A stretch of DNA of 64,000 nucleotides from Chloroflexota bacterium (GCA_042408445.1 JBHORC010000011.1:58069-122068), one strand, 5' to 3'. Shown: positions 5,268-49,632, counted from the first letter of the stretch. The notes: generated from the sequence alone by a model not told the origin. Numbers and translations: made by a program.

Positions 5268-6032
5268 TCAGCTGACGCCGGCCGCCTGGTAGGCGGGTCG
5301 ATCCGTCCGGACCGTTGCTCGCCAGGGCGTTCCGAGCATCGGGAGCAGGTAGCGGTCGAGCCCGTAGTAGCCCGCGACCTTCCACGCGAGCATCAGCCCG
5401 ATGGCCATCGCGAACAGGATCGGGTTGGTGGATGCGGAGCCGGCGAGGAGGAACGACATGTTCATCATCGCCCCGAAGAAGGCGGCAACTCCGACCAGGG
5501 CGCCGAGGAGGAGGCCGATCCCGACGGCGAGCTCACCGAACGAGATCACCCAGGCGAACCACGTCTGATGGTGTCCGTTCAGGAGGAAGGTCAGGAAGTC
5601 GCGATACCAGTCGAACGCGATCGGGCCCTTGCCCGTCTCGGGCGCCACTGCGACGGCGTTCTTCCAGTAGCCGGCAAGGGCGTTGCCGCCGTCGAGCCAG
5701 CCACCACCGGTGATCTTGTGCCAGCTCGCCTCGACCCAGCTGAAGCCGAGGAACAGGCGGATCGGAAGCCAGAACAGGCCCGCCTGCGTGTTCGAGAACA
5801 GGTACCGCGTGAACGCGGGCCCCTCGATCTGGACCTCGCTCGCGCCGGTGTCCTTGCGGCCCTGGAACATCAACACCACGACGGCGATGAACAGGACCCA
5901 GAAGCCAACGGTGGCCGCCTGGCGGAGGGTCTGGCTGACCATCTCCGGGGTGAACCACGGGTTCTCCATCCAGAACAGGATGACGGCGGCCAGGATCCCC
6001 AGGCCCGTCACGAGTCGTCGATTGCCGGACAT
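5268..6032 (-). CDS. DoxX/DoxD-family membrane protein (thiosulfate:quinone oxidoreductase subunit-like)
   Basis: RLFLGFSWVEASWHKI, FGELAVGIGLLLG, MNMSFLLAGSASTNP, AGYYGLD; RBS GGAG before MSGNRR. Confidence 0.85.
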   Translation of the reverse strand: MSGNRRLVTGLGILAAVILFWMENPWFTPEMVSQTLRQAATVGFWVLFIAVVVLMFQGRKDTGASEVQIEGPAFTRYLFSNTQAGLFWLPIRLFLGFSWVEASWHKITGGGWLDGGNALAGYWKNAVAVAPETGKGPIAFDWYRDFLTFLLNGHHQTWFAWVISFGELAVGIGLLLGALVGVAAFFGAMMNMSFLLAGSASTNPILFAMAIGLMLAWKVAGYYGLDRYLLPMLGTPWRATVRTDRPAYQAAGVS

Positions 6033-6115
6033 CTTGTCTCTCCACTTCCTCTGTTGATCGGCCCGCAGGGCCGTTCTCGATGCACATCCTCTGGGCCGGG
6101 GCTGCGGCCCGGCAG

Positions 6116-6152
6116 GGGCCCAACGGCCTGTTCCGCCCGGGCTGTCCGGCCC
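6116..6152. promoter_or_regulatory. Tandem DosR-like boxes upstream of DoxX
   Basis: GGGCC-CAAC-GGCCT (6116-6129) and GGGCT-GTCC-GGCCC (6139-6152); minus-strand -10-like GAGGAT at 6086-6091. Confidence 0.6.
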
Positions 6153-6171
6153 TCCGCGCCGGGACCCGGGA

Positions 6172-6636
6172 TCAGCTGCCGTCGACCGTGACGATGTCGA
6201 CCGGGCAGTCGGCCTGCGCCGCGACGTCGCGGGAGACGCTCCCGGCGATCGCGAGGCCGATGCCATGCCGGCCGTGACTGCCGACGACGATTCGTGAAGC
6301 GCCCTCACCACGGGCCGCCTCCAGCAGGCACGTGGTGGGGTCGCCGTTCCAGATGAGGACGCGAGCGGCAACGCCGGCGGCCCGCGCCGTCGCGACGAGC
6401 TCCGCGCCGTCGCGCTCCCGCTGGCTGCGGGCCTGGTCGACCCGCGTCAGCCACCGCCCGCCGGGCAGCCGAAGTCGCCGGGCGTCGATCGCATGGACCA
6501 CGACGAGGTCGACGCCGAGCCGTGCCGCGGTGCCGATCGCCGCCCGCTCCGCGGCAGCGCTCACGGGGCCGAAGTCCGTCCCGACGACGATCGGGCCGGC
6601 CGCGACGTCCGGGAGCGCACCGGCGGTCACGTTCAC
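6172..6636 (-). CDS. Universal stress protein (USP)
   Basis: IVVGTDF, VVVHAID, IVVGSHGRHG...GSVS...ADCPV; GTGA overlap with the upstream stop. Confidence 0.9.
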   Translation of the reverse strand: MNVTAGALPDVAAGPIVVGTDFGPVSAAAERAAIGTAARLGVDLVVVHAIDARRLRLPGGRWLTRVDQARSQRERDGAELVATARAAGVAARVLIWNGDPTTCLLEAARGEGASRIVVGSHGRHGIGLAIAGSVSRDVAAQADCPVDIVTVDGS

Positions 6637-7922
6637 CCCACTGATGTCGGGATCCGACACAGGAAGGAGGTCGAGCCGCCGGCGAGGGCCGCCTTGCGGA
6701 CCTCGTCGGATCCGCCGGTTGCGCTAGCAAGCGTCGCGGCGGCGGTTCCGGGCGGCTGGATGACGAGCGCGGTCACCATGCCGAACATCCCGTTCTGGCC
6801 TTCGGCATGGGGAAGGATGTGGCAGTGGAACGCCCACGCCCCCGGGTCCTCGCACTTGATGATCACGTCCCAGCGCTCGCCGGGGTTGACGCCCAGCGTG
6901 TCGCAGTCGAACGGGGCGGGGAGGGGGTACCCGTCCCGGGCGACGACGTGCATCGGCATCCCGTGGAGATGCCAGGGGTGCATCATCGACCCCTCGTTCA
7001 TGAACCGGACGGCGATCGTGTCGCCGACGTTCGCGACGATCGGTGACGTCGCCGGAAAGCCGCGGCCGTTGATCGTGAAGCCGCCGAGCGAGTCGTTGCT
7101 GATCCAGACGATGTCCTGGCTCACGCCGTACTTCTTGTCGTAGCGGTCCGCCGGGTCCTTCGGCTGGACGATGAACGCGCCGAGCAGCCCGCGACCGACC
7201 TGGTCGGTCGCGTTGTGGTGCGAGTGGTACATGTGCGAGCCGGGCGTTCGAGCCTCGAACTCGTACGTGAACGAGTCGCCGGGCTTGATCGGGTCCTGGG
7301 TGACGAGGGGGACGCCGTCCATGCCGTTCGGCAGGCGCTGGCCGTGGAAGTGGACGCCGGTCGACTCGCTCAGGTTGTTCCTGAACGTCGCCCGAATTCG
7401 ATCGCCCTCGACGACTTCGATCCGTGGTGCCGGCCAGGTGCCGTTGTAGCCGAGTGCCGCGATCGGGTCCTTGAGCGCATCGATCCGATGCTGGATCTCG
7501 TCGATCGTCATCTCGAAGACCTTCACGCCGCTCTCGATCCGGGTCGGGGCGAGGGGCTGGTTGCCGGCTCCGTCGAGCTTGCTGCCCTCGCCGTCGAGGA
7601 AGCGCTTCACGACGGCGAGCGCCGTCGCGTCGTGGTCTGTCGGCGCGCCGGACGATGACGGCTCGTGGCTGGCGTGGGCGCCGGAGGCGGCCGGCGTCGC
7701 GGCTGCCGACGGGGCAGCGGACGGGGCGCCGGCACCGCCTCCCGGCGCGGCCGGCGGATAGGTCCAGGTCGGAGCGGCGGCCGCCGGTGCACACGCGGCG
7801 ACCGCCGCAGCGACCAGCCCGCCACCGGTGAGGGCGCCCGCCCGGAGGAGGGCCCGGCGGCTGAGGGTGGTCGACGGGATGGGGAGGCTTGTTGTGGCCG
7901 CCTCAGGCCGCAGCTCGGTCAT
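6633..7922 (-). CDS. Tat-exported two-domain multicopper oxidase (type B, small-laccase-like)
   Basis: SRRALL Tat motif and lipobox-like VAAC; HFHG, MYHSH, HPWHLHG, FHCHILPH...M copper motifs. Confidence 0.88.
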   Translation of the reverse strand: MTELRPEAATTSLPIPSTTLSRRALLRAGALTGGGLVAAAVAACAPAAAAPTWTYPPAAPGGGAGAPSAAPSAAATPAASGAHASHEPSSSGAPTDHDATALAVVKRFLDGEGSKLDGAGNQPLAPTRIESGVKVFEMTIDEIQHRIDALKDPIAALGYNGTWPAPRIEVVEGDRIRATFRNNLSESTGVHFHGQRLPNGMDGVPLVTQDPIKPGDSFTYEFEARTPGSHMYHSHHNATDQVGRGLLGAFIVQPKDPADRYDKKYGVSQDIVWISNDSLGGFTINGRGFPATSPIVANVGDTIAVRFMNEGSMMHPWHLHGMPMHVVARDGYPLPAPFDCDTLGVNPGERWDVIIKCEDPGAWAFHCHILPHAEGQNGMFGMVTALVIQPPGTAAATLASATGGSDEVRKAALAGGSTSFLCRIPTSVG

Positions 7923-7979
7923 GGCGGGACTCTTGCGTGAGGCGCGCTCGCGAACCTGTGCCAGAACGCCCAAGAAACT

Positions 7980-8021
7980 GGGCCACAGGTCACGTGCCAT
8001 CCAGGCCCGAACCGGTAGGCT
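7980..8021. promoter_or_regulatory. DosR-like box and -10 element between the divergent MCO and sensor kinase genes
   Basis: GGGCC-ACAG-GTCAC 7980-7993; TAGGCT 8016-8021, 6 nt before GTG 8028. Confidence 0.6.
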
Positions 8022-8027
8022 CCGCAG

Positions 8028-9188
8028 GTGCCAACCTCCGACCCGTCGGTCGAGACACCCGATGCACCGGCGCTCGCCGCCCTCGACGACGCGGCCCGGG
8101 CCATTGCCGAGCTCCGGCCGATCGACGACGTCCTGCAGCTGATCGTCGATCGCGTCCGCGTCCTCGTCGATGCGAGCTACGCGGCGCTCGGCATCGTGGG
8201 CGCCGGCGGGAAGATCGAACGCTTCATCACGGCCGGGATGGACCCGCAGACGCGGGCTGCCATCGGCGACCTGCCCGCCGGCCGCGGGCTCCTCGGACTG
8301 ATCATCCGCGAGGGGCGGTCATTCCGGATCGCCTCGATCGCCGGCCACGCCGATTCGTCTGGCTTTCCGCCGAACCACCCGCCGATGACCTCGTTTCTCG
8401 GCGTGCCGGTGGTCGCGCACGGCCTGTCCGTCGGGAACCTCTACCTGACCGACAAGCGAGGGGCGACCGAGTTCTCCGGGATGGACCAGCGGATCGTGGA
8501 GACGTTCGCCATCCACGCCGGGATCGCGATCGACAACGCCCGGCTCCACGCCCAGGCGGGGCGGCTCGCGGTCGCCGACGAGCGCGACCGGATCGGCCGC
8601 GACCTCCACGACGGGATCATCCAGTCGCTCTACGCCGTTTCGCTGTCCCTCGAGGACGTCCCCGAGCTGATGGCGGAGTCGTCTCCCGACGCCGAGCGGC
8701 GGGTCGACCAGGCGATCGATTCGCTCCATCTCGCAATCCGCGACATCCGGAACTTCATCTTCGGGCTGCGACCCGAGGCGGTCGACGGCAGCGAAGTCGT
8801 GGCGGGCATCGCCGCGCTCGCCCAGGATTTCCGTGACGGCGGACTGGTCGACGTCGTCGTCACCCTCGACCCGGCCGCGGACCCGACGCTCTCGCCGGAG
8901 CACGGCGTGGAGCTCCTCACGGTCGTTCGCGAGGTCCTGAGCAACGCGGCGCGCCATTCGCGAGCGCACCGCGTGGACGTCCTGCTCGGCAACGGACCGA
9001 CCGGGCCGTATCTGGAGATCGCGGACGACGGGGTGGGATTCGATCCTGCGCGGCCGCTCTCGGAGGACCATCATGGGCTGGCCAACATCCGGGTGCGGTC
9101 CGAGGCCATCGGCGCGCGCCTCGACGTCGACAGCGCGATCGGCCTTGGAACGCGCATCCGCCTGACGTTCTCACGGGACCAGCAATGA
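8028..9188 (+). CDS. DosS/DevS-like GAF sensor histidine kinase (single GAF + HisKA_3 + HATPase)
   Basis: GFPPNHPPMTSFLGVP heme-GAF motif, GNLYLTDK, ERDRIGRDLHDGIIQ, DDGVGF. Confidence 0.92.
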   Translation: MPTSDPSVETPDAPALAALDDAARAIAELRPIDDVLQLIVDRVRVLVDASYAALGIVGAGGKIERFITAGMDPQTRAAIGDLPAGRGLLGLIIREGRSFRIASIAGHADSSGFPPNHPPMTSFLGVPVVAHGLSVGNLYLTDKRGATEFSGMDQRIVETFAIHAGIAIDNARLHAQAGRLAVADERDRIGRDLHDGIIQSLYAVSLSLEDVPELMAESSPDAERRVDQAIDSLHLAIRDIRNFIFGLRPEAVDGSEVVAGIAALAQDFRDGGLVDVVVTLDPAADPTLSPEHGVELLTVVREVLSNAARHSRAHRVDVLLGNGPTGPYLEIADDGVGFDPARPLSEDHHGLANIRVRSEAIGARLDVDSAIGLGTRIRLTFSRDQQ

Positions 9189-9880
9189 CCGACACGACCC
9201 CAGGGACACCGGGCACGCCGAGCGCCGCGAAGCCGCTCCGGTTGCTCGTCGTCGACGACCACGAGGTCGTTCGGCAGGGCCTCGTCGCCCTGCTCGAGCG
9301 CCGACCGACGTTCCAGGTCGTTGCCGAGGCGGGCAGCGTCGAGGAGGCGATGGCCCAGGCGCGCCGGCACGAGCCGGACGTGGTGATCATGGACGTGCGT
9401 CTCCCCGACGGCTCCGGGATCGAGGCGTGCCGTGACATCCGGGCGGAGCTGCCCGGCACCCGCGTCGTCATCCTCACCTCGTTCCCGGACGACGAGGCGG
9501 TCTTCTCCGCGATCGTCGCGGGAGCCTCGGGGTACCTGTTGAAGCAGATCCGGGCGCGGGATCTCGTCGCCGCGCTGGAGGCCGTCGGCCGTGGCGAGTC
9601 CCTGCTGGATCCTGCCGTCACGGAGAAGGTCCTGATCCGGGTCCGCCAGATCGCCGCCGGCGAGACGAACGACGAGCTGGGCGGGCTCACGCCGCAGGAG
9701 CGGAAGATCCTGATGCTCGTCGCCGAGGGCAAGACCAACAAGGAGATCGCCGCGGAGATCTTCCTGTCCGACAAGACGGTGAAGAACTACGTCAGCTCGA
9801 TCCTCGCCAAGCTCAACCTCGAGCGCCGCGCGCAGGCCGCGGCCTTCGTCGCCCAGCACCGGCTCGATCGCGGGCGGTAG
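9185..9880 (+). CDS. DosR/DevR-like NarL-family response regulator
   Basis: VDDHEVVR, DVRLPDGSG, LTPQE...EGKTNKEIA..FLSDKTVKNYVSSILAKL. Confidence 0.93.
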   Translation: MTDTTPGTPGTPSAAKPLRLLVVDDHEVVRQGLVALLERRPTFQVVAEAGSVEEAMAQARRHEPDVVIMDVRLPDGSGIEACRDIRAELPGTRVVILTSFPDDEAVFSAIVAGASGYLLKQIRARDLVAALEAVGRGESLLDPAVTEKVLIRVRQIAAGETNDELGGLTPQERKILMLVAEGKTNKEIAAEIFLSDKTVKNYVSSILAKLNLERRAQAAAFVAQHRLDRGR

Positions 9881-9935: not shown

Positions 9936-9978
9936 GGGCCAAAGGTCCCTGCTCCAGCCGGCGCGCGGCGTCTACGGT
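9936..9978 (+). promoter_or_regulatory. DosR-like box and -10 element of the GNAT/CoA-transferase operon
   Basis: GGGCC-AAAG-GTCCC 9936-9949 (half-site GGCCC at 9923-9927); TACGGT 9973-9978, 6 nt before ATG 9985. Confidence 0.7.
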
Positions 9979-9984: not shown

Positions 9985-10506
9985 ATGGACCCCTGCACCC
10001 CGGCACCGGACGTCACGATCCGGCCGATCGTCGCCGCGGACGCTCCCGCGCTCGAGGACTTCTACCGACGGCTCGGTGACGACAGCCGACGGCTGCGCTT
10101 CTTCGCGGTGACGAGCGGCCTGACACACGCCCAGTCGGCCGCCTTCTGCTCTCCCGACCATTGCCACGAGGAGGGCTTCGTCGCGACGATCACCGGCGGC
10201 GCGGGAGGCGGGTCGGCGCGGGTCGTCGGTCATGTCTGTCTCGAGCCCGCCGGCGACGGCCGGGCGGAGGTCGCGATCGCCGTCGCGGACGACCTGCAGC
10301 GCCGCGGGATCGGCCAGCAGCTCATGGAGGCCGCGCTCGAGTGGGCGCGCGAGGCCGGGGTCGGGACGCTGATCGCGACGACCCTCGCCTCGAACGCGGG
10401 GATCCACCGCCTGATCGCATCGCTCGGGATCCCCGCCACGGTTCGTGGCGGCGGTGACACCTCGACCGTCGAGCTGGCCGTCCCGTCCCCCGCGATCGCG
10501 GCCTGA
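9985..10506 (+). CDS. GNAT acetyltransferase (resembles the GNAT domain of Pat/YfiQ)
   Basis: IRPI...SRRLRFF, AEVAIAVADDLQRRGIG acetyl-CoA loop. Confidence 0.88.
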   Translation: MDPCTPAPDVTIRPIVAADAPALEDFYRRLGDDSRRLRFFAVTSGLTHAQSAAFCSPDHCHEEGFVATITGGAGGGSARVVGHVCLEPAGDGRAEVAIAVADDLQRRGIGQQLMEAALEWAREAGVGTLIATTLASNAGIHRLIASLGIPATVRGGGDTSTVELAVPSPAIAA

Positions 10507-10517
10507 CCGCGACCAGG

Positions 10518-11789
10518 ATGCGGATCGTCGAAGCGGCAGAGGCCGTCGCGGGCATCGTCTCGGGCCAGCGGGTCTACCTGCAGTGCGCGGGGGCCACGCC
10601 GAGCGTGCTCCTCCAGGCGCTCGTCGATCGGTCCGCGGAGCTCCACGACGTCGAGGTCGTCCATCTCCACATCGAGGGTCCGGCACCGCACCTCGCGCCG
10701 GAGATGGCCGGTCACTTCCGCCATCGCGCGCTCTTCATCGGGCCGAACGCCCGGGCGGCCGTGAACGAGGGACGCGCCGACTACGTGCCGGTCTTCCTCT
10801 CCGACGTGCCCCGCCTGTTCACGTCCGGCGTGCTGCCGCTCGACGCGGTCTTCGTGAACGCGACCCCGCCCGACGCGTTCGGCTTCTGCTCGCTGGGGAC
10901 CTCCGTCGAGGCGATGCACGCGGCGATCCTCGCCGCGACGACGGTGATCGTCCAGTTCAACCGGTCCATGCCGCGGACGCTCGGCGACAGCTTCATCCAC
11001 GTCGACCAGATCGACCTCGCGGTGGAGGTCGACCAGCCGCCCTTCGAGCACGCGGTCGGGGCGATCGGCGAGACGGAGCGTCGGATCGGCGAGCACGTGG
11101 CCGACCTCGTCGTGGACGGGGCCACGATCCAGCTGGGGATCGGCGCGATCCCGGCTGCGACCGCGCTCTTCCTCCGGGACAAGCGCGACCTCGGCGTCCA
11201 CACGGAGATGTTCACCGACAGCGTCGTCGACCTCGTCGAGGCGGGGGTCATCACCGGCGCCCGCAAGGAGCGGAACCGCGGCAAGATCGTCACCGCCTTC
11301 GTCCTCGGCAGCCGGCGCCTGTACCGCTTCATCGACGACAACCCGATGATCGAGATGCGGCCGGTCGACTTCACGAACGACACCCACGTCATCCGCTCGT
11401 TCGCCCGGATGACCGCGATCAACTCGGCGATCGAGGTCGACGTGACCGGCCAGGTCGTGGCGGACTCGATCGGCAGCCACGTCTACAGCGGCGTGGGCGG
11501 TCAGATGGACTTCATCCGCGGCGCGGCGCTGGCGGCGGAGGGCCGGGCGATCATCGCGCTCCCCTCAACGGCCCGCGCGGGGGCGACGAGCCGGATCGTG
11601 CCGACCCTCCACGAGGGCGCCGGCGTGGTGACGACCCGGGCCCACGTCCGGACCGTCGTCACCGAATGGGGCGTCGCCGAGCTGTTCGGCCGGAGCGTCC
11701 GGGAGCGGGCCAGGGCGCTCATCGCGATCGCCCATCCCGATCATCGGGACCAGCTGGAACACGCCGCGCGGGCGCTGCTCGAGCTCTGA
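10518..11789 (+). CDS. Acetyl-CoA hydrolase/transferase (4-hydroxybutyrate CoA-transferase-like, family I)
   Basis: TIQLGIGAIP, LGVHTEM (catalytic Glu), SGVGGQMDFIRGA, VVTEWG. Confidence 0.93.
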   Translation: MRIVEAAEAVAGIVSGQRVYLQCAGATPSVLLQALVDRSAELHDVEVVHLHIEGPAPHLAPEMAGHFRHRALFIGPNARAAVNEGRADYVPVFLSDVPRLFTSGVLPLDAVFVNATPPDAFGFCSLGTSVEAMHAAILAATTVIVQFNRSMPRTLGDSFIHVDQIDLAVEVDQPPFEHAVGAIGETERRIGEHVADLVVDGATIQLGIGAIPAATALFLRDKRDLGVHTEMFTDSVVDLVEAGVITGARKERNRGKIVTAFVLGSRRLYRFIDDNPMIEMRPVDFTNDTHVIRSFARMTAINSAIEVDVTGQVVADSIGSHVYSGVGGQMDFIRGAALAAEGRAIIALPSTARAGATSRIVPTLHEGAGVVTTRAHVRTVVTEWGVAELFGRSVRERARALIAIAHPDHRDQLEHAARALLEL

Positions 11790-11818: not shown

Positions 11819-12064
11819 TCAGGACGACGCGCGGGCCGCGACCCTCGCGAGTGGGTCCGTCGCCGGGGCGAGGAGCGCGGCGATCTCCGCCGCCTCGGCT
11901 GGTGTCAGTTGCTCGATGATCGTGCCGGCCAGGACCGTGACGAAGTCACCGATCCGCACATCGGGGCAGAGCAGCGTCGAGGCCACCCGCCGGCGGCCTC
12001 GTGCCTCCACGACCGCACCGGCCGGCTCCATGGCGACGACGCGCCCGGGGAGCTCGATGCACAT
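11819..12064 (-). CDS. hypC: HypC/HupF hydrogenase maturation chaperone (atypical)
   Basis: MCIELPGRVV N-terminus and GDFV; position in the hydrogenase operon. Confidence 0.8.
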   Translation of the reverse strand: MCIELPGRVVAMEPAGAVVEARGRRRVASTLLCPDVRIGDFVTVLAGTIIEQLTPAEAAEIAALLAPATDPLARVAARASS

Positions 12065-12067
12065 CGG

Positions 12068-12598
12068 TCAGCTCCGGACCCGGTCGATCGCCGCGAGGAT
12101 CGCGTCCACGAACGCCGGGATCGCGTGGGCGACCCGCGGGCTCAGTGGCGCTCCCAGCCCGAACGCCCCCGCGCCGACGGCGACGATGCGGCCCCGGAGC
12201 GGGCGCCCGCGGATCATGTCGGCGAGGCCGATGACCTCGCGGAACTCGAGGGCGTGCGACGAACGCGGGCGGACGTTGTCCGGCCGGGCGATCAGGCCGC
12301 CGAGCGGGAGCTCCACGACCTCACCCCGCCGCAGCCCGGTCGCCGCGTCGACGACCACGACGCCCGCGCCGCGGCCCACCGCGAGCAGGTCGTCGATGTC
12401 GAGCTGGCCGACGATCCGGACGCGGACGTCCGGTTCGACCCGGTCGCGGAGCTGCCCCGCCGCGACGATCGGTGCGCCGTCGTCGCCGCGGTCGATCGAG
12501 CCGCAGACCAGCACCTCGACGGCGACGCCCAGGGGCGAGTGTCGCGCGGAAGACGGTCGGGACGGCGCGGTGGGGCGCAGGGTGGGCGGGATCGTCAT
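12068..12598 (-). CDS. Hydrogenase maturation protease
   Basis: RGDDGA, VVVVDAA and SSH motifs; ATGA overlap with the large-subunit stop. Confidence 0.85.
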   Translation of the reverse strand: MTIPPTLRPTAPSRPSSARHSPLGVAVEVLVCGSIDRGDDGAPIVAAGQLRDRVEPDVRVRIVGQLDIDDLLAVGRGAGVVVVDAATGLRRGEVVELPLGGLIARPDNVRPRSSHALEFREVIGLADMIRGRPLRGRIVAVGAGAFGLGAPLSPRVAHAIPAFVDAILAAIDRVRS

Positions 12599-13920
12599 GA
12601 TGCGTCCTCCACGCGCAGGTCGAGGAAGTGGGTGGCACAGCTGATGCACGGGTCATAGCTCCGGATCAGCTGCTCGATCCGGTGCGTGGCCTCGTGACGG
12701 GGCAGGTGGAGGACCGTCGGCGCGAAGGCCGCCAGGTCGGACTCGATCGCGGCCTGGTTCTGGCTGGTCGGCGGCACGATCTGGGCGTGGGCGATGCGGC
12801 CCCGCTCATCCAGCTCATAGGCGTGGAAGATCAGGCCGCGCGGCGCCTCCGTTGCCCAGGCGGCTTCCCCGCCGTGCCGCTCCCAGGCCACAGCGGCGTC
12901 GCCGGCCGGCTCGTATGCGTCGACGATCGCAAGCGCTTCGGCCGTGGCGTCAACCGTTTCGACGGCCCGGGCGACGATGCTCCGATAGGGGTTCACGGCG
13001 ATCTCGGCGGCGAGCCCCGTGCGGTCGAGGGCCGCGGCCGCGATCGGATGGAGCTGGTCCCGGGCGAGCGTGATCCGCGACATCGGCCCCAGCAGGTAGG
13101 CGCGACCCGCGGCGTCGCGGGCCTGGAGCGCGTGCGACCACGGCACCTGCTCCTCGTGGAACGCCGATCGCCAGGCGGTCGACGGCAGGTCCAGTCCGTC
13201 GGTCGAGACGATCCGGCCCTCGTTCATCGGGTACTCGAGCGGGTGGCGGAGGGCGACGAGCGGGCCCTCCCGGACGAACGCCGGCGTGTCGAGCGCGGCG
13301 ACGAGCTCCACGGTCTGGATCGCGACCTCGAGGGCGCGTTCCAGCGAGCCCCGGAGGGCGCGGACCTCCTCCCGCCGGAACGAGCGGGAGAACCCGCCGA
13401 CCCGCACGGAGACGGGATGGATGGCCCGACCGCCGACCATCGCCACGATCTCGTTGCCGGCCTTCTTCAGCGCGAGTCCGGCTTCGACCGCCGCCCGGTG
13501 GTCGTGCGCCATCTCGAGCGCGCTCGCGTAGCCCAGGAAGTCGGGAAGGTGCAGGAGGTAGATGTGGAGGGCGTGGCTCTCGATCCACTCGCCGCAGTAC
13601 AGCAGCCGCCGCAGGGCGCGGACCGACGGGTCGATCTCGACGGCGAGGGCGTGCTCGAAGGCGTGGACCGCCGTCATCTGGTACGCGACCGGGCAGATGC
13701 CACAGATGCGGGCGACGATGTCGATGACCTCGTCCGGCGTCCGCCCCAGGACGAGCCGCTCGAAGTAGCGCGGCGCCTCGAAGATCGCGAGGTGTGCCTC
13801 CTCCACGCGACCGTTCTTCACCCGGACCTTCAGGGAGCCCTCGCCCTCGACCCGCGTCAGGCCGGCGATGTCGACCTCGAGGTCGCCGCTCGACTCGGTG
13901 ATCGTGTCGGTGTCATGCAT
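12595..13920 (-). CDS. hyhL: Group 3b [NiFe]-hydrogenase large (alpha) subunit
   Basis: TRVEGEG, L1 RICGICP, EAPRG, L2 YDPCISCATH plus a cleavable tail. Confidence 0.95.
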   Translation of the reverse strand: MHDTDTITESSGDLEVDIAGLTRVEGEGSLKVRVKNGRVEEAHLAIFEAPRYFERLVLGRTPDEVIDIVARICGICPVAYQMTAVHAFEHALAVEIDPSVRALRRLLYCGEWIESHALHIYLLHLPDFLGYASALEMAHDHRAAVEAGLALKKAGNEIVAMVGGRAIHPVSVRVGGFSRSFRREEVRALRGSLERALEVAIQTVELVAALDTPAFVREGPLVALRHPLEYPMNEGRIVSTDGLDLPSTAWRSAFHEEQVPWSHALQARDAAGRAYLLGPMSRITLARDQLHPIAAAALDRTGLAAEIAVNPYRSIVARAVETVDATAEALAIVDAYEPAGDAAVAWERHGGEAAWATEAPRGLIFHAYELDERGRIAHAQIVPPTSQNQAAIESDLAAFAPTVLHLPRHEATHRIEQLIRSYDPCISCATHFLDLRVEDAS

Positions 13921-14809
13921 CGGGGCCTCCCGGCGGCGTGCCCGCGGGCTGAGCGTCTGCAGGCTGGTTTGCGGTGACGGGTGGGCCGCCGCGAGCGTCG
14001 ATCACGGCCCGGAACGGCGTCGACCAGGCGGTGAAGCCGGCGAACAGGCTCGCGACCTCCGGGTCCGTCCGGCCGTCCGAGAGCCACTCCGCGAGCGACT
14101 CCGCATTCGCTCCTTCGCGCGGCCCGAAGCAGCCGTAGCAGCCGCGGCCGTAGGCGGGGCAGATCGCCCCGCAGCCCGTCCTCGTCACCGGGCCGAGGCA
14201 GGCGACGCCGCGGCTGACGGCGACGCACACGACGCCGCGGCGCTTGCACTCGATGCACACCGCCTCGTCGGGGAGCTGCGGGCGGCGGCCGGTGACGAGC
14301 GCGACGAGAAACTCGCGAAGCTGGGCAGGCGAGATCGGGCAGCCCCGCAGCTCGCCGTCAACCGCCACGTAGTCGGACACCGGCCGCGCCTCGGCGAGCG
14401 ACTCGACGAACGCGGGCTCGGGATAGACCGCCGCCCGGGTCTCGTCGTGATCGAACCAGTTCCGGATCGCCTGGATGCCGCCGGCCGTCGCGCACGCCCC
14501 GATCGTCACGAGGCGATGCGAGACGGCCCGCAGTCGGGCGATCTCCTCGACCTGCTCGGGGGTGCTGATCGAGCCCTCCACGAACAGGACGTCGAAGGGG
14601 CCGGCCGATCGCCGCGACGTCGCCTCGGCGAACTCCACGAGATCGACGCGGTCGGCGATCGTCAGGAGCTCGTCCTCGAGATCGAGCAGCGTCAGCTGAC
14701 AGCCGTCACAGGACGCGAGCTTCACCACACCGATCCGTGGACGGCGGGCGATGCCGTCGCGCGGACGGCCGGGTGCAGCCGATACGGGCAGCGGCGTTCC
14801 GGTCGTCAC
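13913..14809 (-). CDS. hyhS: Group 3b [NiFe]-hydrogenase small (delta) subunit
   Basis: ASCDGCQ, VEGS, GACATAGG, RGCPI, VCIECK, CLGPVT..GCGAICP, CYGCFG; GTG at 14809 overlaps the upstream TGA. Confidence 0.92.
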   Translation of the reverse strand: MTTGTPLPVSAAPGRPRDGIARRPRIGVVKLASCDGCQLTLLDLEDELLTIADRVDLVEFAEATSRRSAGPFDVLFVEGSISTPEQVEEIARLRAVSHRLVTIGACATAGGIQAIRNWFDHDETRAAVYPEPAFVESLAEARPVSDYVAVDGELRGCPISPAQLREFLVALVTGRRPQLPDEAVCIECKRRGVVCVAVSRGVACLGPVTRTGCGAICPAYGRGCYGCFGPREGANAESLAEWLSDGRTDPEVASLFAGFTAWSTPFRAVIDARGGPPVTANQPADAQPAGTPPGGPDA

Positions 14810-17300: not shown

Positions 17301-17406
17301 GCGGCCATCCTGTGACCGGGTGATCCGGCTCACGAGGGTCCACCGGCCCGCGACGACGGGCCATTCAGCCCATCCGCCGGCGACGCTTTGAACCGACGAT
17401 CGGTCC
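17301..17406. promoter_or_regulatory. Back-to-back leaderless promoters sharing two DosR-like boxes
   Basis: GGGTC-CACC-GGCCC 17336-17349 and GGGCC-ATTC-AGCCC 17358-17371; -10-like CAGGAT (minus, 17307-17312) and GACGAT (plus, 17395-17400), each 6 nt from an ATG. Confidence 0.7.
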
Positions 17407-21957: not shown

Positions 21958-21979
21958 CCACGTCAGCCCATGTCACCAG

Positions 21980-40483: not shown

Positions 40484-40487
40484 GGCG

Positions 40488-40730
40488 TCACCGGACCTTC
40501 TGGACGACGATCTCGTCGTAGCCGTCGCGGGCCTCCAGGGAGACGAGGCGGTGGCCGGCCTTCTCGATCCACTTCGGGATGTCGGTCCGCGAGCCCTTGT
40601 CCGAGGAGTAGACGGCAATCACGTCGCCCGTCGAGCCCTCCCGGATCGCCCGGATGAGCTCCATCAACGGTCCCGGGCAGTAGCTGCCGCGGGCGTCGAC
40701 GGTGCGGGTGGTCTCGGTTGCGGTGGTCAT
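40488..40730 (-). CDS. tusA: TusA-family sulfurtransferase
   Basis: DARGSYCPGP motif. Confidence 0.92.
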   Translation of the reverse strand: MTTATETTRTVDARGSYCPGPLMELIRAIREGSTGDVIAVYSSDKGSRTDIPKWIEKAGHRLVSLEARDGYDEIVVQKVR

Positions 40731-40746
40731 GGCGAATCGCCCCTTC

Positions 40747-41355
40747 CTAGATGAACAGCGGGGTGGAGTTCTCGGTCAGCAGGCCGATCACGGTGGCAGC
40801 GCCCGCCGGCTCGCCCATGCCCTCGATCATGTCGTCCTTCTTCAGGCCGAACATGTCCATCGTCATCTGGCACGGGATGAACTCGACCCCCATCGCCTGG
40901 GCCGCCTCGAGGAGCTCCTTCGGGCTCGCCACGCCGTACTGGCGCGCCAGCCGCCCCATCATCCAGGGACCCATGCCCAGGAAGTTCATCTTCGAGAGCT
41001 TGCGGTGGCTGATGCCTGGCCGCTGCATGGCGGCGAGCATCCGCTGCATCCAGTTCTCGCCCGTGATCCGCCGCGAATCCTTGACGAAGACCTGGAGGCC
41101 CCAGAACGTCACGAACACGCGGGTGCGAACGCCCATCGCCGCGCTCGTCGAGGCGAGGATCATCGTTGCCCAGACCTTCTCGAGGTCGCCGCTGTAGTCG
41201 ATGATCAGCAGATCTTTCGTGGCGACCGAGTCCGGGCCTGCCGGAGCCGGGTTGGTCGCCGGCGCGACGCTCGGGGTCTCCACCTCGGGCCACCCGTCGA
41301 TGGCGGCGATCGCCGCGGCGAACGGGTCCGATCCGGGGCGTGTTTCGGTGGTCAT
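40747..41355 (-). CDS. DsrE/DsrF/DrsH-like (DsrE2-type) sulfur carrier
   Basis: SGDLEK, FVTFWGL, LSKMNFLGMG, PCQMTMDMFG. Confidence 0.9.
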   Translation of the reverse strand: MTTETRPGSDPFAAAIAAIDGWPEVETPSVAPATNPAPAGPDSVATKDLLIIDYSGDLEKVWATMILASTSAAMGVRTRVFVTFWGLQVFVKDSRRITGENWMQRMLAAMQRPGISHRKLSKMNFLGMGPWMMGRLARQYGVASPKELLEAAQAMGVEFIPCQMTMDMFGLKKDDMIEGMGEPAGAATVIGLLTENSTPLFI

Positions 41356-41363
41356 GGCTGGCC

Positions 41364-41600
41364 TCACTTCCGACGGATGACGAATCGGTAGACCGGGCCG
41401 TCGGCGGTCTGGTCGACGAGCTCGTTGCCGGTGGCCCGACACCACGCCGTCACGTCCTTGACCGATCCCGCGTCCGTCGCGAGAAGCTCGACGATCGCGC
41501 CCGACGGCAGTGGCTTGATGGCCTGCGCGACCTTCACGATCGGCATCGGGCAGGACAGCCCTCGGGCGTCGACCGTCTGGGTGGTCTCGATGACTGGCAT
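41364..41600 (-). CDS. tusA: TusA-family sulfurtransferase
   Basis: DARGLSCPMP, ATDAGS..D..AWC. Confidence 0.92.
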   Translation of the reverse strand: MPVIETTQTVDARGLSCPMPIVKVAQAIKPLPSGAIVELLATDAGSVKDVTAWCRATGNELVDQTADGPVYRFVIRRK

Positions 41601-41625
41601 GGATGTGCTCCTTTCGGCGGGTGGA

Positions 41626-42039
41626 TCAGATGAAGACGACGTGACCCTCGCCGGCGTTCAGGTAGAAGGCGGTCACGCCTTCGACCCCATCGACGAGCGG
41701 GTCCAGGTCGGCGGAGTCGAGGTGAAGCAGATCCATCGACAGGCTGCACGCCTGGATGTCCACCGAGCCGAGGCCCTTCGCCTGGCGAAGCGTCTCGGCC
41801 CACGGTGCCTGGCCGGCCGCGGCCAGGGCATCGACCGCTGCTCGACCGGCGGCTCCCGCCTCTGGGGCGAGGCCGTGATCGCGATCGATCTTCGAGGAGC
41901 GGAACGCGTCGAGCGCCCAGTACTGCAGGAAGATGTTGACGGGCTTGCCGAGCGCCGCCGCTCCGGCCGTCAGGACCGCCGCGGCCTGGAGCTTGTCATC
42001 GGTGCCGGAGAAGAGCACCAGATTCAGGGGCTCGTCCAT
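41626..42039 (-). CDS. DsrE-family protein
   Basis: FSGTDDKL, FLQYWAL, ACSLSMDL. Confidence 0.88.
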   Translation of the reverse strand: MDEPLNLVLFSGTDDKLQAAAVLTAGAAALGKPVNIFLQYWALDAFRSSKIDRDHGLAPEAGAAGRAAVDALAAAGQAPWAETLRQAKGLGSVDIQACSLSMDLLHLDSADLDPLVDGVEGVTAFYLNAGEGHVVFI

Positions 42040-42099: not shown

Positions 42100-42206
42100 A
42101 GCATCGACGCATCCCGCGGCGGCGGTCAGTGCCGAGCGGCTCGCCGGCAGGGGCCAGACGGCAGGCATCGCCTCGGTGACCCGCTGGACGAGGGGTCCCC
42201 GGTCCC
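42100..42206 (-). promoter_or_regulatory. DosR-like boxes upstream of the sulfur-relay operon
   Basis: GTGCC-GAGC-GGCTC 42129-42142, GGGCC-AGAC-GGCAG 42151-42164, GGGTC-CCCG-GTCCC 42193-42206; minus-strand GATGCT 42100-42105. Confidence 0.5.
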
Positions 42207-48327: not shown

Positions 48328-48355
48328 CGGGCTGCCACCGGTGGCATTCGAAGCG

Positions 48356-48916
48356 TCAGATTGGGGTGGCGGCCGATTGCGGCGCGAGCTCGTGCGCGAT
48401 CTCGCAGGCCCATGCCTCGATCGCGGGCCAGTCGCGGAAGTCGCCGCTCGGCATCGCCTCGCGGACGCTCTTCATCCGCAGGAACGGCGCGCCTAGTCGC
48501 TCCCACACGCCGATCGGTTCGGCCTCCGCGTCGAACGCGCCGAAGAAGACCCGCTGGTCGCGAGGTCGAATGGACGCTGCGAGCTCACCGAATTCGACAG
48601 GTCGGCTCGCGTCGAGGACATCTCGTCCGTGCTTGTCGACCGTTTCCTCACCGATCGGCCCACTGCTGAACAGCCAGACGGGGTGCTGCTCGAGGGCCGG
48701 CCGATGGCGCTCGACGAACTGGCGCGCCTCCTTCAGCCAGTGACCCATGTACGCGGCGCTTCCGACGACGAAGGCGTCGTAGCCGGCGACGGTTTCGACC
48801 TCGCCGATCGGCATGACGTCGACGGCCGATCCGGCCGACCCGAGCACCTTCGCCAGGTGCTTCGCGATGCCGGCCGTCGCTCCGTGGCGAGTCGCGTACG
48901 CGACGAGCACCTTCAT
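48356..48916 (-). CDS. Flavodoxin-domain protein (HemG/Flavodoxin_5-like)
   Basis: VAYATRHGAT, GSAAY, WLFSSGP, DFRDW; GGAGGAGG RBS. Confidence 0.88.
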   Translation of the reverse strand: MKVLVAYATRHGATAGIAKHLAKVLGSAGSAVDVMPIGEVETVAGYDAFVVGSAAYMGHWLKEARQFVERHRPALEQHPVWLFSSGPIGEETVDKHGRDVLDASRPVEFGELAASIRPRDQRVFFGAFDAEAEPIGVWERLGAPFLRMKSVREAMPSGDFRDWPAIEAWACEIAHELAPQSAATPI

Positions 48917-49060
48917 GACTGCCTCCTCCGATGCCGCCGGGCGGTCCGGCTGCTCCACGCAGGTATCCCGCAACGCGGCCGGCGACGCGAGTGCCGAAGC
49001 GCCCGTTTCCGAAGATCGTTCCGACGTGTGGCGACGCCGGCGATCCTGGTGGTCGGCTGC

Positions 49061-49125
49061 GGTTCGGACGGCCCGAGGGTTTGGTCGGTTCGGCACGGGC
49101 GCAGCGCGACGTTCCTCGCGACGAT
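49061..49125 (+). promoter_or_regulatory. Tandem DosR-like boxes and -10 element upstream of the Ddn-like gene
   Basis: GGTTC-GGAC-GGCCC 49061-49074, GGTCG-GTTC-GGCAC 49083-49096, GACGAT 49120-49125. Confidence 0.5.
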
Positions 49126-49149
49126 GGAGGTGGTTTGGAGGAAACGTTG

Positions 49150-49632
49150 ATGTCAGTTCCTGCTCGGCTGTTCGCGATCGTCCTGGCCGTCGGAGCGGCG
49201 TTGGCCGGCGGCGTCACGTTCTGGCGACGCAACCCGAGGACCGGCACGCACTTCGTGAATGCGGTCGTGAACCCGTTCATCCTCCGGGAGGGCCTGGCCG
49301 GCGGGAGCGCGTCCGAGCTTGGGATGCTCGAGCATGTCGGCCGGCGCTCCGGCCTGCTTCGGCGGACTCCGGTGCACCCCGAGCCGACGCCGAACGGCTT
49401 TCGCATCCTCGTGCCCCTGGGTGGGCAATCGGAATGGGCCAGGAACGTCCTCGCGGCTGGTCGCTGTCGCCTGGTGATTCACGAGCACGCGTACGAGCTC
49501 GACGCGCCGGCGATGGTCGAGCCCCGGGAGGTTGCGGGTCTACCGACCATCGCCCGGCGCGTGATGGCGGCGCTGGGGTTCCAGTACCTCGAGCTCCGGC
49601 TGGTCGGTCCTGCGGCCTCGCCCGGAGCCTGA
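49150..49632 (+). CDS. Deazaflavin-dependent nitroreductase family protein with N-terminal TM anchor
   Basis: LEHVGRRSG..RRTPV, SEWARNVLAAG; GGAGG RBS. Confidence 0.82.
   Translation: MSVPARLFAIVLAVGAALAGGVTFWRRNPRTGTHFVNAVVNPFILREGLAGGSASELGMLEHVGRRSGLLRRTPVHPEPTPNGFRILVPLGGQSEWARNVLAAGRCRLVIHEHAYELDAPAMVEPREVAGLPTIARRVMAALGFQYLELRLVGPAASPGA

What the first reader, a model, noticed from the sequence alone, without database searches (positions are those of the whole stretch)
5268..49632. DosR-type hypoxia regulon readable from the sequence: recurring 14-bp box at a fixed ~-42 position
Seen: GGGCC-N4-G(G/T)CCC-like palindromes at 6116/6139, 7980, 9936 (half-site 9923), 17336/17358, 21534/21557, 24975/24998, 42129/42151(/42193) and 49061/49083. 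Pairs are 22-23 bp apart. The proximal box centre lies 41.5-42.5 bp from start codons with a NANNNT hexamer 6 nt upstream (8028, 9985, 17300, 17407, 42093), and at nearly the same distance from -10-like hexamers at 6086, 21594 and 49120. The 24975 pair lacks a hexamer at that spacing. Known: mycobacterial DosR binds GGGAC-N4-GTCCC in tandem next to the -35 region. Inference: the local DosS/DosR-like pair controls hydrogenase, PFOR, CoA-transferase, MCO/USP, DoxX, EamA-DUF6390, the sulfur relay and an F420 enzyme over 44 kb, in what looks like a non-mycobacterial lineage.
Basis: partly seen in the sequence, partly recalled or inferred. Interest (0 to 1): 0.88.

Follow-up and report, generated by a model that had tools for sequence, protein, structure and literature searches.

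The report
DosR-type low-oxygen regulon in Chloroflexota
An uncultured soil bacterium of the phylum Chloroflexota carries a close relative of the tuberculosis DosS/DosR low-oxygen switch, and the switch's DNA box sits at a fixed activator position in front of about ten operons for hydrogen production, pyruvate fermentation, sulfur handling and stress proteins: a known circuit in a new phylum.

Summary
A scoring matrix built only from boxes in related genomes finds 18 boxes in the window's 6.3 kb of intergenic DNA, against 2.2 in shuffles. It finds 7 box pairs 22-23 bp apart, against 0.004 in shuffles. Seven of the genome's eight such pairs lie in this window.

In 10 promoters a NANNNT -10 hexamer follows the proximal box by 22-24 nt. 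This puts the box centre near -42. Five of these promoters start translation 6 nt after the hexamer, so they are leaderless.

The same spacing and the same box-to-hexamer offset recur in 80 loci from other genomes.

The adjacent regulator's closest solved relative is M. tuberculosis DevR, and it keeps DevR's DNA-contact residues. The kinase carries a DosS/DosT-type haem GAF-A domain but lacks GAF-B.

The closest relatives are all Limnocylindria (Chloroflexota) genome bins, not Actinobacteria.

The box equals the Streptomyces OsdR consensus. The layout equals the -42.5/-63.5 tandem Dev boxes of M. tuberculosis.

- 9923 and 42193 are not boxes.
- 42093 starts only a 15-codon frame.
- 7980 and 24975 each have an extra partner box.
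- EamA and the F420 enzyme are weakly supported targets.

Verdict: a new member of a known kind. This scan has noted the same circuit before on other Chloroflexota DNA.

The parts
8028..9188 (+). Sensor histidine kinase: one DosS/DosT-type haem GAF-A domain, HisKA_3 (H-box RDLHD) and HATPase; 386 aa, no GAF-B
   Evidence: Pfam; PDB 2vzw E 2.4e-34 and 2w3d E 2.2e-31; translation
9185..9880 (+). DevR/DosR/OsdR-type NarL-family response regulator. It is the only one in the genome matching at E<=1e-55
   Evidence: Pfam; PDB 3c3w E 2.6e-63 with contact residues kept; next paralogue 43% identical
6116..6152 (.). Box pair 6116-6129 (proximal, 10.2 bits) and 6139-6152 (13.0 bits), 23 bp apart. It serves the minus-strand DoxD-like gene
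   Evidence: pair plus hexamer conserved in 10 of 19 relatives
6086..6091 (-). -10 hexamer GAGGAT, 24 nt after box 6116
5268..6032 (-). Target: membrane protein with a weak DoxD-like match; has a Shine-Dalgarno leader; ATG at 6032
7958..7993 (.). Box pair 7958-7971 (7.1 bits) and 7980-7993 (9.7 bits), 22 bp apart. It is shared by two divergent leaderless promoters
7929..7934 (-). -10 hexamer AAGAGT, 6 nt before ATG 7922 of the MCO gene
6172..7922 (-). Target operon: Tat-signal multicopper oxidase (6633-7922) and universal stress protein (6172-6636)
   Evidence: Pfam; N-terminus
8016..8021 (+). -10 hexamer TAGGCT, 6 nt before GTG 8028 of the kinase (autoregulation)
9936..9949 (.). Single strong box GGGCCAAAGGTCCC (12.2 bits), centre 42.5 nt before ATG 9985
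9973..9978 (+). -10 hexamer TACGGT, 6 nt before ATG 9985
9985..11789 (+). Target operon: GNAT acetyltransferase and acetyl-CoA hydrolase/transferase-family CoA-transferase
   Evidence: Pfam, NCBIfam. In other genomes a 418-425 aa gene in the same place after the regulator gene (not annotated there) carries a pair 43.5 nt before its start (L069, L144, L145)
17336..17371 (.). Box pair 17336-17349 (8.9 bits) and 17358-17371 (13.5 bits), 22 bp apart. It is shared by two divergent leaderless promoters
   Evidence: conserved in aligned relatives
17307..17312 (-). -10 hexamer CAGGAT, 6 nt before ATG 17300
11819..17300 (-). Target operon: cNMP-binding protein; fused beta/gamma, delta and alpha subunits of a group-3b-like NAD(P)-linked [NiFe] hydrogenase; maturation protease; HypC
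   Evidence: Pfam, NCBIfam. The best hits are sulfhydrogenase subunits, all below the curated cut-offs
17395..17400 (+). -10 hexamer GACGAT, 6 nt before ATG 17407
17407..21466 (+). Target operon: pyruvate/2-oxoacid:ferredoxin oxidoreductase alpha-gamma, CBS-pair protein, delta-beta
   Evidence: Pfam, NCBIfam
21534..21570 (.). Box pair 21534-21547 (10.1 bits) and 21557-21570 (6.3 bits), 23 bp apart
   Evidence: a box of at least 8 bits in 12 of 18 relatives
21594..21599 (+). -10 hexamer CACCAT; a Shine-Dalgarno leader runs to ATG 21643
21643..22973 (+). Target operon: 104-aa unknown protein, flavodoxin-like protein, 130-aa unknown protein
24954..25011 (.). Three boxes: 24954 (5.5 bits), 24975 (13.2 bits) and 24998 (10.3 bits), 21 and 23 bp apart
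24924..24929 (-). -10 hexamer GACCAT, 24 nt after box 24954. The predicted leader to ATG 24830 is about 87 nt
23099..24830 (-). Candidate target: EamA transporter and DUF6390. Not conserved as a target in relatives
   Evidence: Pfam; 0 of 9 relatives have a pair upstream
42129..42164 (.). Box pair 42129-42142 (7.7 bits) and 42151-42164 (9.0 bits), 22 bp apart
42100..42105 (-). -10 hexamer GATGCT, 6 nt before ATG 42093. That ATG opens a 15-codon frame ending at 42046
39326..42039 (-). Target operon: DsrE-like, TusA, DsrE, TusA, type III sulfide:quinone reductase-like
   Evidence: Pfam, NCBIfam. Boxes of at least 10 bits lie upstream of the operon, or of an extra first gene, in 11 of 16 relatives
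49061..49096 (.). Weak box pair 49061-49074 (8.4 bits) and 49083-49096 (8.1 bits), 22 bp apart
49120..49125 (+). -10 hexamer GACGAT; a Shine-Dalgarno leader runs to ATG 49150
49150..49632 (+). Candidate target: deazaflavin (F420)-dependent nitroreductase-family protein
   Evidence: NCBIfam TIGR00026, 47.3 bits against a cut-off of 46.35; only 1 of 6 relatives has a box plus hexamer

Best explanation
The window holds the core of a DosR (DevR/OsdR)-type regulon in a Limnocylindria (Chloroflexota) bacterium.

Proposed mechanism, all of it inferred:
1. A haem-GAF histidine kinase (8028-9188) senses O2, NO or CO and phosphorylates the DevR-like regulator (9185-9880).
2. Regulator dimers bind 14-bp palindromes with consensus GGGCC-N4-GGCCC.
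3. They activate transcription as class-II-type activators.

What the sequence shows:
- The boxes stand mostly in tandem, 22-23 bp centre to centre (about two helical turns).
- The promoter-proximal box covers the -35 region. It is centred 41.5 to 43.5 nt before the predicted transcription start and lies 22-24 nt before a NANNNT -10 hexamer.
- Ten promoters in the window have this layout.
- Two box pairs each serve two divergent leaderless genes, whose start codons are 106 and 107 nt apart.

Predicted targets: the regulator's own operon; a multicopper oxidase with USP; GNAT with a CoA-transferase; a group-3b-like hydrogenase; pyruvate:ferredoxin oxidoreductase with a CBS protein; a DoxD-like membrane protein; a small-protein/flavodoxin operon; and a DsrE/TusA/SQR sulfur operon. 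EamA-DUF6390 and an F420-family reductase are less certain.

Taken together, the targets suggest a switch to fermentative, hydrogen-evolving maintenance metabolism when oxygen runs out.
For: Cis-elements:
- Window intergenic DNA holds 18 boxes against 2.2 and 7 pairs against 0.004 in 500 shuffles.
- The genome-wide spacing peak is at 21-23 bp, in intergenic DNA only. Seven of 8 pairs at 22-23 bp are in the window.
- The intergenic-to-coding density ratio rises from 1.4 at 8 bits to 10.9 at 15 bits.
- A hexamer at offset 22-24 is present in 10 of 10 promoters.

Independent genomes:
- In 80 loci of other Limnocylindria genome bins, only 1 of which is the same DNA as one of the first set of genus loci, L001-L012, intergenic pairs number 46 at 22 bp and 25 at 23 bp. 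Every other spacing from 14 to 45 has at most 5.
- In 93 promoters from those loci, NANNNT starts at offset 23 in 24 and at offset 24 in 12, against about 2.3 per other offset. The hexamer-N5-7-RTG pattern peaks at the same offsets.
- PFOR upstream regions of 9 relatives keep the boxes and the -10 hexamer while the flanks diverge; 8 of 9 have a box plus hexamer.
- DoxD-like gene: the pair plus hexamer is present in 10 of 19 relatives.

Regulator:
- DevR (3c3w) E 2.6e-63; recognition helix and phospho-Asp motif kept.
- GAF-A of DosT/DevS with the HPPM histidine and the LYLT tyrosine kept.
- Box pairs lie upstream of its own operon.
- It is the single DosR-type paralogue in the genome.

Published parallels:
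- OsdR consensus AGGGCCGATCGGCCCT (PMC5069765, passages).
- Tandem Dev boxes at -42.5 and -63.5, with helical phasing essential (PMC3177182, passages).
- DosS/T-DosR activates the group 3b hydrogenase Hyh in M. smegmatis (bioRxiv 10.1101/2023.09.11.557286 and 10.64898/2026.10.24.761498, passages).
Against: - There are no binding, transcription-start or expression data.
- The genome has 30 NarL-family matches, so assigning the box to this regulator rests on autoregulation, motif likeness and conserved contact residues.
- The kinase lacks the GAF-B domain of DevS/DosT.
- EamA orthologues show no pair upstream in 0 of 9 relatives, although operon structure differs there. The F420 gene shows a box plus hexamer in only 1 of 6.
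- The boxes at 42129/42151 and 49061/49083 are weak (7.7-9.0 bits).
- The bare consensus is not enriched over the whole window.
- Gene calls and start codons come from my own simple codon-bias caller.
- The matrix was trained on kinase and PFOR promoters of relatives, so its scores on those same loci are circular.
- A site overlapping -35 could in principle repress rather than activate.
- Near regulators about 55% identical from other Chloroflexota classes, 5 of 20 loci had any exact core box and none had a 22-23 bp pair. The layout is therefore not shown for the whole phylum.
Confidence: 0.8

Rival explanations
1. The boxes are real promoter elements, but another regulator binds them: one of the other NarL-family regulators of this genome, or a CRP/FNR-type protein. 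That family also uses 5-N4-5 palindromes centred near -41.5.
For: There are 30 NarL-family matches in the genome. Many outer half-sites read GTGAC/GTCAC, which resembles a CRP-type core (recalled). A cNMP-binding protein is encoded at 16824-17300.
Against: The cNMP protein is 158 aa with no DNA-binding domain found. The dominant half-site is GGGCC, equal to the OsdR consensus. Tandem boxes in helical phase are the DevR hallmark. The pair sits before the DevR-like gene's own operon in many genomes, and the DevR DNA-contact residues are kept. The next paralogue is only 43% identical.
Confidence: 0.1
2. The DevR-like regulator binds the boxes but acts mainly as a repressor. It would occlude the -35 region until a signal releases it.
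For: The proximal box covers positions -49 to -36, where a bound protein could block RNA polymerase. Position alone does not tell activation from repression.
Against: The box occupies the place where a -35 hexamer would lie, and I made no search for -35 hexamers, so the sequence alone does not tell activation from repression. Identical geometry (-42.5/-63.5) activates in M. tuberculosis. The fixed 22-24 nt offset to the -10 hexamer is what an RNA-polymerase-contacting activator needs. A repressor would tolerate variable positions.
Confidence: 0.07
3. The boxes are chance GC-rich palindromes, terminator-like hairpins or a dispersed repeat in a 71% G+C genome, with no regulatory meaning.
For: The consensus with one mismatch is no more frequent in the window than in shuffles. 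GGGCC-N4-GGCCC can form a 5-bp hairpin.
Against: See the shuffle controls, the sharp spacing peak restricted to intergenic DNA, the fixed offset to -10 hexamers and start codons, and conservation upstream of orthologous genes while flanks diverge.
Confidence: 0.02

Closest known systems
DevR(DosR)-DevS/DosT dormancy regulon of Mycobacterium tuberculosis and its Dev boxes (Chauhan et al. 2011, PMC3177182)
   Same: - NarL-family regulator; best solved relative 3c3w, with contact residues kept.
- Haem GAF-A sensor kinase.
- Palindromic box with GGG/CCC triplets.
- At least two tandem boxes in helical phase, with the proximal box at about -42.5.
- Divergent promoters sharing one pair.
- Autoregulation.
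- Target families include USP, a CBS-pair protein and ferredoxin-type redox enzymes. The composition of the M. tuberculosis regulon is recalled, apart from Table 1 seen.
   Different: - The phylum is Chloroflexota, not Actinomycetota.
- Position 4 of the box is mostly C (GGGCC) rather than A (GGGAC).
- Box spacing is 22-23 bp rather than 21.
- The kinase has one GAF domain (386 aa) rather than GAF-A plus GAF-B.
- Targets include PFOR, a CoA-transferase, a multicopper oxidase and a DsrE/TusA/SQR operon.
- Half of the promoters are leaderless.
OsdR-OsdK of Streptomyces coelicolor (Urem et al. 2016, PMC5069765)
   Same: The predicted and gel-shift-tested consensus AGGGCCGATCGGCCCT is the same core as here: GGGCC, then G/A, A/T, T/A, C, then GGCCC. 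In both cases the regulon was read by comparing regions upstream of the regulator's orthologues, and USP genes lie nearby.
   Different: OsdR links to development and stress in a filamentous actinomycete. No fixed -42 tandem layout was described in the passages I read. The flanking bases here lean to C/G rather than A/T.
DosR control of the group 3b [NiFe] hydrogenase Hyh in Mycobacterium smegmatis (as cited in bioRxiv 10.1101/2023.09.11.557286)
   Same: A DosR-type switch sits in front of an NAD(P)-linked group-3b-type hydrogenase that disposes of reductant as H2 in hypoxia. Here the hydrogenase operon has a box at -42.5.
   Different: Here the hydrogenase promoter is back to back with a PFOR promoter on one shared box pair. 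The beta and gamma subunits are fused, and a cNMP-binding protein heads the operon.

Membership tests
DevR/DosR/OsdR-type two-component regulon | Response regulator of the NarL/LuxR family that is closer to DevR than to other solved NarL-family regulators | tested here: met
   3c3w E 2.6e-63 (216 bits) against VraR 6.8e-46 and NarL 6.5e-36. NCBIfam has no matching equivalog above its cut-off.
DevR/DosR/OsdR-type two-component regulon | DNA-contacting Lys-x-x-Lys-Asn of the recognition helix (DevR K179, K182, N183; numbering recalled) and the phospho-acceptor Asp | tested here: met
   The alignment shows DKTVKNYV against EKTVKNYV, and MDVRLPDG against LDVRLPDG.
DevR/DosR/OsdR-type two-component regulon | Cognate HisKA_3 kinase with a haem-binding GAF-A domain | tested here: met
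   2vzw (DosT GAF-A) E 2.4e-34 and DevS GAF-A about 1e-31. The histidine in NHPPM, the tyrosine in NLYLT and the H-box RDLHD are kept. The roles of these residues are recalled; haem binding itself cannot be tested here.
DevR/DosR/OsdR-type two-component regulon | Kinase architecture GAF-A plus GAF-B, as in DevS/DosT | tested here: not met
   One GAF domain (residues 31-169) is directly followed by HisKA_3 at residue 185; 386 aa in total. Other Limnocylindria loci have kinases of about 356-431 aa or about 490-590 aa.
DevR/DosR/OsdR-type two-component regulon | Palindromic 5-N4-5 box with outer GGG/CCC triplets | tested here: met
   Logo from 93 promoters. The core equals the OsdR consensus.
DevR/DosR/OsdR-type two-component regulon | Tandem boxes in helical phase, with the proximal box overlapping -35 at about -42.5 | tested here: met
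   Spacing peak at 22-23 bp. Fixed offset of 22-24 nt to the -10 hexamer. Published values are -42.5 and -63.5. Transcription starts are predicted, not mapped.
DevR/DosR/OsdR-type two-component regulon | Boxes upstream of the regulator's own operon (autoregulation) | tested here: met
   Window pair 7958/7980. Same-genus loci L002-L006, L008 and L012. A pair in 33 of 70 evaluable other loci, or 53 of 70 counting a single box of at least 10 bits.
DevR/DosR/OsdR-type two-component regulon | The regulator binds the boxes, and the genes are induced by hypoxia, NO or CO | not testable with these tools
   No tool here tests DNA binding. No RNA run was listed for this DNA.

The most novel reading that the evidence does not exclude
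In Limnocylindria, an abundant uncultured class of soil Chloroflexota, a single-GAF haem kinase and a DosR-type activator drive one compact hypoxia island. On oxygen loss the island would switch on a full fermentative route together with sulfide handling.

The route would run through a box-bearing GAPDH gene elsewhere in the genome, PFOR, a CoA-transferase and an H2-evolving group-3b hydrogenase.

The promoter layout (tandem boxes with the proximal one at -42, -10-only and often leaderless promoters) is shared with Actinomycetota. The switch and its layout therefore either predate the split of the two phyla or moved between them as a unit. If so, the hypoxia response of these bacteria could be predicted from sequence alone.
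Probability: 0.45. Interest if true: 0.55.

Novelty: new member of a known kind. Interest (0 to 1): 0.45.

Why it matters
DosR is the textbook hypoxia and dormancy switch of mycobacteria, with a described counterpart in Streptomyces. Here the same regulator type, box and promoter geometry are read from raw sequence in another phylum.

I found no paper on a DosR or DevR regulon in Chloroflexota. 'DosR' with 'Chloroflexi' gave 3 papers, none on this by title or abstract. 'DevR' with 'Chloroflexota' gave 13 papers, of which 8 were listed, none on this.

Limnocylindria are common in soils and have no cultured model. A sequence-readable regulon gives a concrete, testable prediction of what they do when soil turns anoxic: evolve H2, ferment pyruvate to acetate, and handle sulfide.

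It also shows that -10-only, leaderless promoters served by a -42 activator occur in Chloroflexota.

The mechanism itself is not new.

Tried and rejected
- Bare consensus count over the whole window: not enriched. I replaced it with intergenic, pair and offset tests.
- Unbiased count of exact 5-N(0-8)-5 palindromes enriched in intergenic DNA: GGGCC-N4-GGCCC was not among the top 40. The top hit was a different motif, GGTGC-N6-GCACC. Exact-palindrome counting is too strict for this degenerate box.
- Pair counting with at most 2 mismatches to the consensus: too loose (13,826 hits), giving only a slight bump at 22 bp.
- Expression evidence: no RNA holder was listed for window:12000-21500.
- Phylum-wide reach: regulators matching at E<=1e-55 occur in 102 of 301 Chloroflexota genomes sampled. 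In 20 loci taken from other classes, only 5 had any exact GGGNC-N4-GNCCC box and none had a 22-23 bp pair. I therefore do not claim the regulon outside Limnocylindria, and that E-value does not define orthology.
- NCBIfam gave no DevR-specific model for the regulator or kinase; the best hits were MadR and MctS, below cut-off.
- Considered and rejected: 9923 and 42193 as boxes, ATG 42093 as the DsrE start, and a promoter for the minus-strand flavodoxin gene from box 49061, which has no hexamer at the right offset.
- Supplementary figures and tables of PMC3177182 (positions of all Dev boxes) were not seen. They may bear on how 22-23 bp compares with the full M. tuberculosis spacing distribution.

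Full report
**What the window is.** The window is G000:C15:58069-122068 of a 2.87-Mb, 40-contig genome with about 71% G+C. I called genes with my own codon-bias caller, trained on long open frames of the genome, and named them with Pfam and NCBIfam. The 80 closest relatives of the regulator gene (74-86% identity) nearly all lie in metagenome bins titled Candidatus Limnocylindrales or Limnocylindria, Chloroflexota/Chloroflexi, or another Chloroflexota group (Chloroflexia, Anaerolineaceae, Anaerolinea, Thermomicrobiales); the exceptions are one titled Steroidobacteraceae and one 'uncultured bacterium'. The lineage is therefore Chloroflexota, class Limnocylindria. It is not an actinobacterium, as the G+C content and the leaderless genes might suggest.

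**Observation.** The bare consensus GGGCC-N4-GKCCC with one mismatch is not enriched over the whole window: 53 matches against 45.9 +/- 7.7, with 17 of 100 shuffles reaching 53. Genome-wide, exact GGGMC-N4-GKCCC occurs 44 times, 12 of them intergenic against 4.8 expected. This is only a modest excess.

To avoid circularity I built a symmetrised scoring matrix from 23 boxes taken only from related genomes. These boxes lie upstream of the orthologous kinase-regulator operon and of the orthologous PFOR gene. Three results followed.
- In this genome the intergenic-to-coding density ratio of hits rises from 1.4 at 8 bits to 5.6 at 13 bits and 10.9 at 15 bits.
- I counted pairs in which each box scores at least 5 bits and the sum is at least 16. 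Intergenic pairs number 2, 4 and 4 at spacings 21, 22 and 23 bp. All other spacings from 14 to 45 bp together give 3. Coding DNA is flat at 0-3 per spacing.
- Seven of the eight pairs at 22-23 bp are in this window: 6116, 7958, 17336, 21534, 24975, 42129 and 49061. The eighth is C39:124924.

Within the window's 37 intergenic segments (6,322 bp) there are 18 boxes of at least 8 bits against 2.2 +/- 1.5 in 500 dinucleotide-preserving shuffles (maximum 9). There are 8 boxes of at least 10 bits against 0.65, and 7 pairs against 0.004.

**Promoter anatomy.** I oriented each promoter towards its gene. A NANNNT hexamer then starts 22-24 nt after the proximal box in all nine promoters checked:

| Box | Strand | Hexamer |
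|---|---|---|
| 6116 | - | GAGGAT |
| 7980 | + | TAGGCT |
| 9936 | + | TACGGT |
| 17336 | - | CAGGAT |
| 17358 | + | GACGAT |
| 21557 | + | CACCAT |
| 24954 | - | GACCAT |
| 42129 | - | GATGCT |
| 49083 | + | GACGAT |

A tenth promoter was found. Box 7958 is followed by AAGAGT and, 6 nt later, by ATG 7922 of the Tat-signal multicopper oxidase.

The start codon lies exactly 6 nt after the hexamer at 7922, 8028, 9985, 17300 and 17407, so these genes are read as leaderless. At 42093 the ATG in that position opens only a 15-codon frame. The promoters at 6116, 21557 and 49083 have Shine-Dalgarno leaders, and 24954 has a leader of about 87 nt. The proximal box centre is thus 41.5 to 43.5 nt before the predicted transcription start and covers the -35 region.

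Two pairs, 7958/7980 and 17336/17358, each serve two divergent leaderless genes. Their start codons are 106 and 107 nt apart.

**Independent genomes.** The 80 Limnocylindria loci total 481 kb. Only one (L071 = L007) is the same DNA as one of the first set of genus loci, L001-L012; L013-L066 were not compared.
- Intergenic pairs number 46 at 22 bp and 25 at 23 bp. Every other spacing from 14 to 45 has at most 5, and the counts of 5 at 44 and 45 bp are triple boxes. Coding DNA has at most 3 per spacing.
- In 93 oriented promoters from these loci, NANNNT starts at offset 23 in 24 and at offset 24 in 12, against about 2.3 per other offset. Hexamer-N5-7-ATG/GTG peaks at 23 (17) and 24 (6), with a side peak at 20.
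- Upstream of the kinase-regulator operon, 33 of 70 evaluable loci have a pair. Counting a single box of at least 10 bits as well gives 53 of 70. Ten loci were not evaluable.

**Conservation of each target in the genus.**
- PFOR: in the alignment of 9 relatives, the two boxes and the -10 hexamer stay while the flanks diverge. Eight of 9 have a strong box plus hexamer. The matrix scores here are partly circular; the alignment is not.
- DoxD-like gene: the pair plus hexamer is present in 10 of 19 relatives, and 2 more have a single box plus hexamer.
- 21643 gene: a box of at least 8 bits is present in 12 of 18 relatives, 4 of them with a hexamer.
- DsrE/TusA/SQR operon: a pair is present in only 2 of 16. 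Boxes of at least 10 bits lie in front of the operon, or of an extra 130-aa first gene, in 11 of 16.
- EamA-DUF6390: 0 of 9 relatives have a pair. There the gene follows other small genes.
- F420-family gene: 1 of 6 has a box plus hexamer.

**Who binds.**
- The protein at 9185-9880 has M. tuberculosis DevR as its best solved relative (3c3w, E 2.6e-63; the next hit, VraR, is 6.8e-46). It keeps the helix K-T-V-K-N and the receiver Asp motif. The residue numbers K179, K182, N183 and D54 are recalled.
- It is the only match in the genome at E<=1e-55. The next paralogue is 43% identical.
- The kinase GAF domain matches DosT and DevS GAF-A (E 2.4e-34 and about 1e-31), with the HPPM histidine and the LYLT tyrosine kept, and has the H-box RDLHD.
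- The kinase has only one GAF domain, where DevS and DosT have two.
- Binding and signal remain inferred.

**Comparison with what is known.** Passages of Chauhan et al. 2011 (PMC3177182) state three things. At least two Dev boxes in tandem are the hallmark of the regulon. In tgs1-Rv3131 the two boxes sit at -42.5 and -63.5 and drive divergent genes. Helical phasing is essential.

Passages of Urem et al. 2016 (PMC5069765) give the OsdR consensus AGGGCCGATCGGCCCT. This is the same core as the logo here.

Two preprints (passages) state that DosS/T-DosR activates the group 3b hydrogenase Hyh in M. smegmatis. The hydrogenase here has sulfhydrogenase (group 3b) subunits as its best matches, all below the curated cut-offs.

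The circuit is thus a member of a known kind. It differs in phylum, in box spacing (22-23 bp against 21), in having a single-GAF kinase, and in part of its target set.

I found no paper on a DosR or DevR regulon in Chloroflexota (listings, titles and abstract starts only). This scan has already noted the same circuit on other Chloroflexota DNA (e1-758392 and e1-5243688).

**Outside the window and outside the class.** Strong single boxes with a hexamer at offset 23-24 lie before these genes:
- a GAPDH gene (C21);
- a DsbA-like gene (C39);
- a second cupredoxin/multicopper oxidase (C24);
- a leaderless 69-aa PLDc_N protein (C12);
- a GAF-GAF-GGDEF gene (C32);
- an EAL gene (C28).

These are candidates only. 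Regulators matching at E<=1e-55 occur in 102 of 301 sampled Chloroflexota genomes (one of these, G090, is flagged unpublished). In 20 loci from other classes I saw exact core boxes in only 5 and no 22-23 bp pair. The layout is shown for Limnocylindria only.

Locus L002 comes from the unpublished genome G010.

**Verdict.** I put the boxes being functional promoter elements at about 0.95, their being bound by the adjacent DevR-like regulator at about 0.8, and activation on oxygen loss, NO or CO at about 0.65.

Noticed in passing
Genome G000 outside the window, e.g. C33:67952, C33:73982, C40:161977 (15 sites): A different palindrome, GGTGC-N6-GCACC, occurs 15 times in the genome. Fourteen of the sites are intergenic, mostly before gene starts, and none is in the window. 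It looks like the operator of another regulator. Some of these sites also score 10-12 bits with my DosR matrix, so single GTGCC...GGCAC hits should not be counted as DosR boxes.
   Followed up: partly
window 8028-9188; loci L067-L146: The DosS-like kinase here has a single haem-type GAF domain (386 aa). Across 70 Limnocylindria loci the kinases next to the regulator fall into two size classes, about 356-431 aa and about 490-590 aa. The longer class may be the two-GAF form.
   Followed up: partly
window 7922, 8028, 9985, 17300, 17407; C12:55393: Leaderless genes with a NANNNT -10 hexamer exactly 6 nt before the start codon are common in this Chloroflexota genome island. The same pattern peaks in 93 promoters of other Limnocylindria genomes.
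   Followed up: partly
window 14796-14809: A 9.5-bit box (GTTCCGGTCGTCAC) lies in the 77-nt gap inside the hydrogenase operon, between the fused beta/gamma subunit gene and the small subunit gene. It may mark an internal promoter or be chance.
   Followed up: no
window 42046-42093 (minus strand): A 15-codon open frame starts exactly at the predicted transcription start of the DsrE/TusA/SQR operon and ends 7 nt before the DsrE start codon. It may be a leader peptide or an accident of a leaderless-type promoter.
   Followed up: no
loci L048-L060 (relatives of the DsrE operon): In most relatives the DsrE/TusA operon is headed by an extra gene of about 130 aa that this genome lacks. The DosR-type boxes sit in front of that gene, in several cases 42.5-43.5 nt before its called start.
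   Followed up: partly
window 42273-44651 (minus strand): A P-type cation ATPase of the Ca/PMR1-like class lies directly upstream of the sulfur operon on the same strand. The M. tuberculosis regulon has the P-type ATPase CtpF (Table 1 seen). I found no box of at least 7 bits before this gene.
   Followed up: partly
G017:C7:638772-656510 and G040:C35:22196-33281: The hypoxia island is syntenic in other genomes of the genus. In G017 the DoxD-like gene, DsrE, the regulator and the 104-aa gene lie within 18 kb. In G040 EamA, PFOR and the 104-aa gene lie within 11 kb.
   Followed up: no
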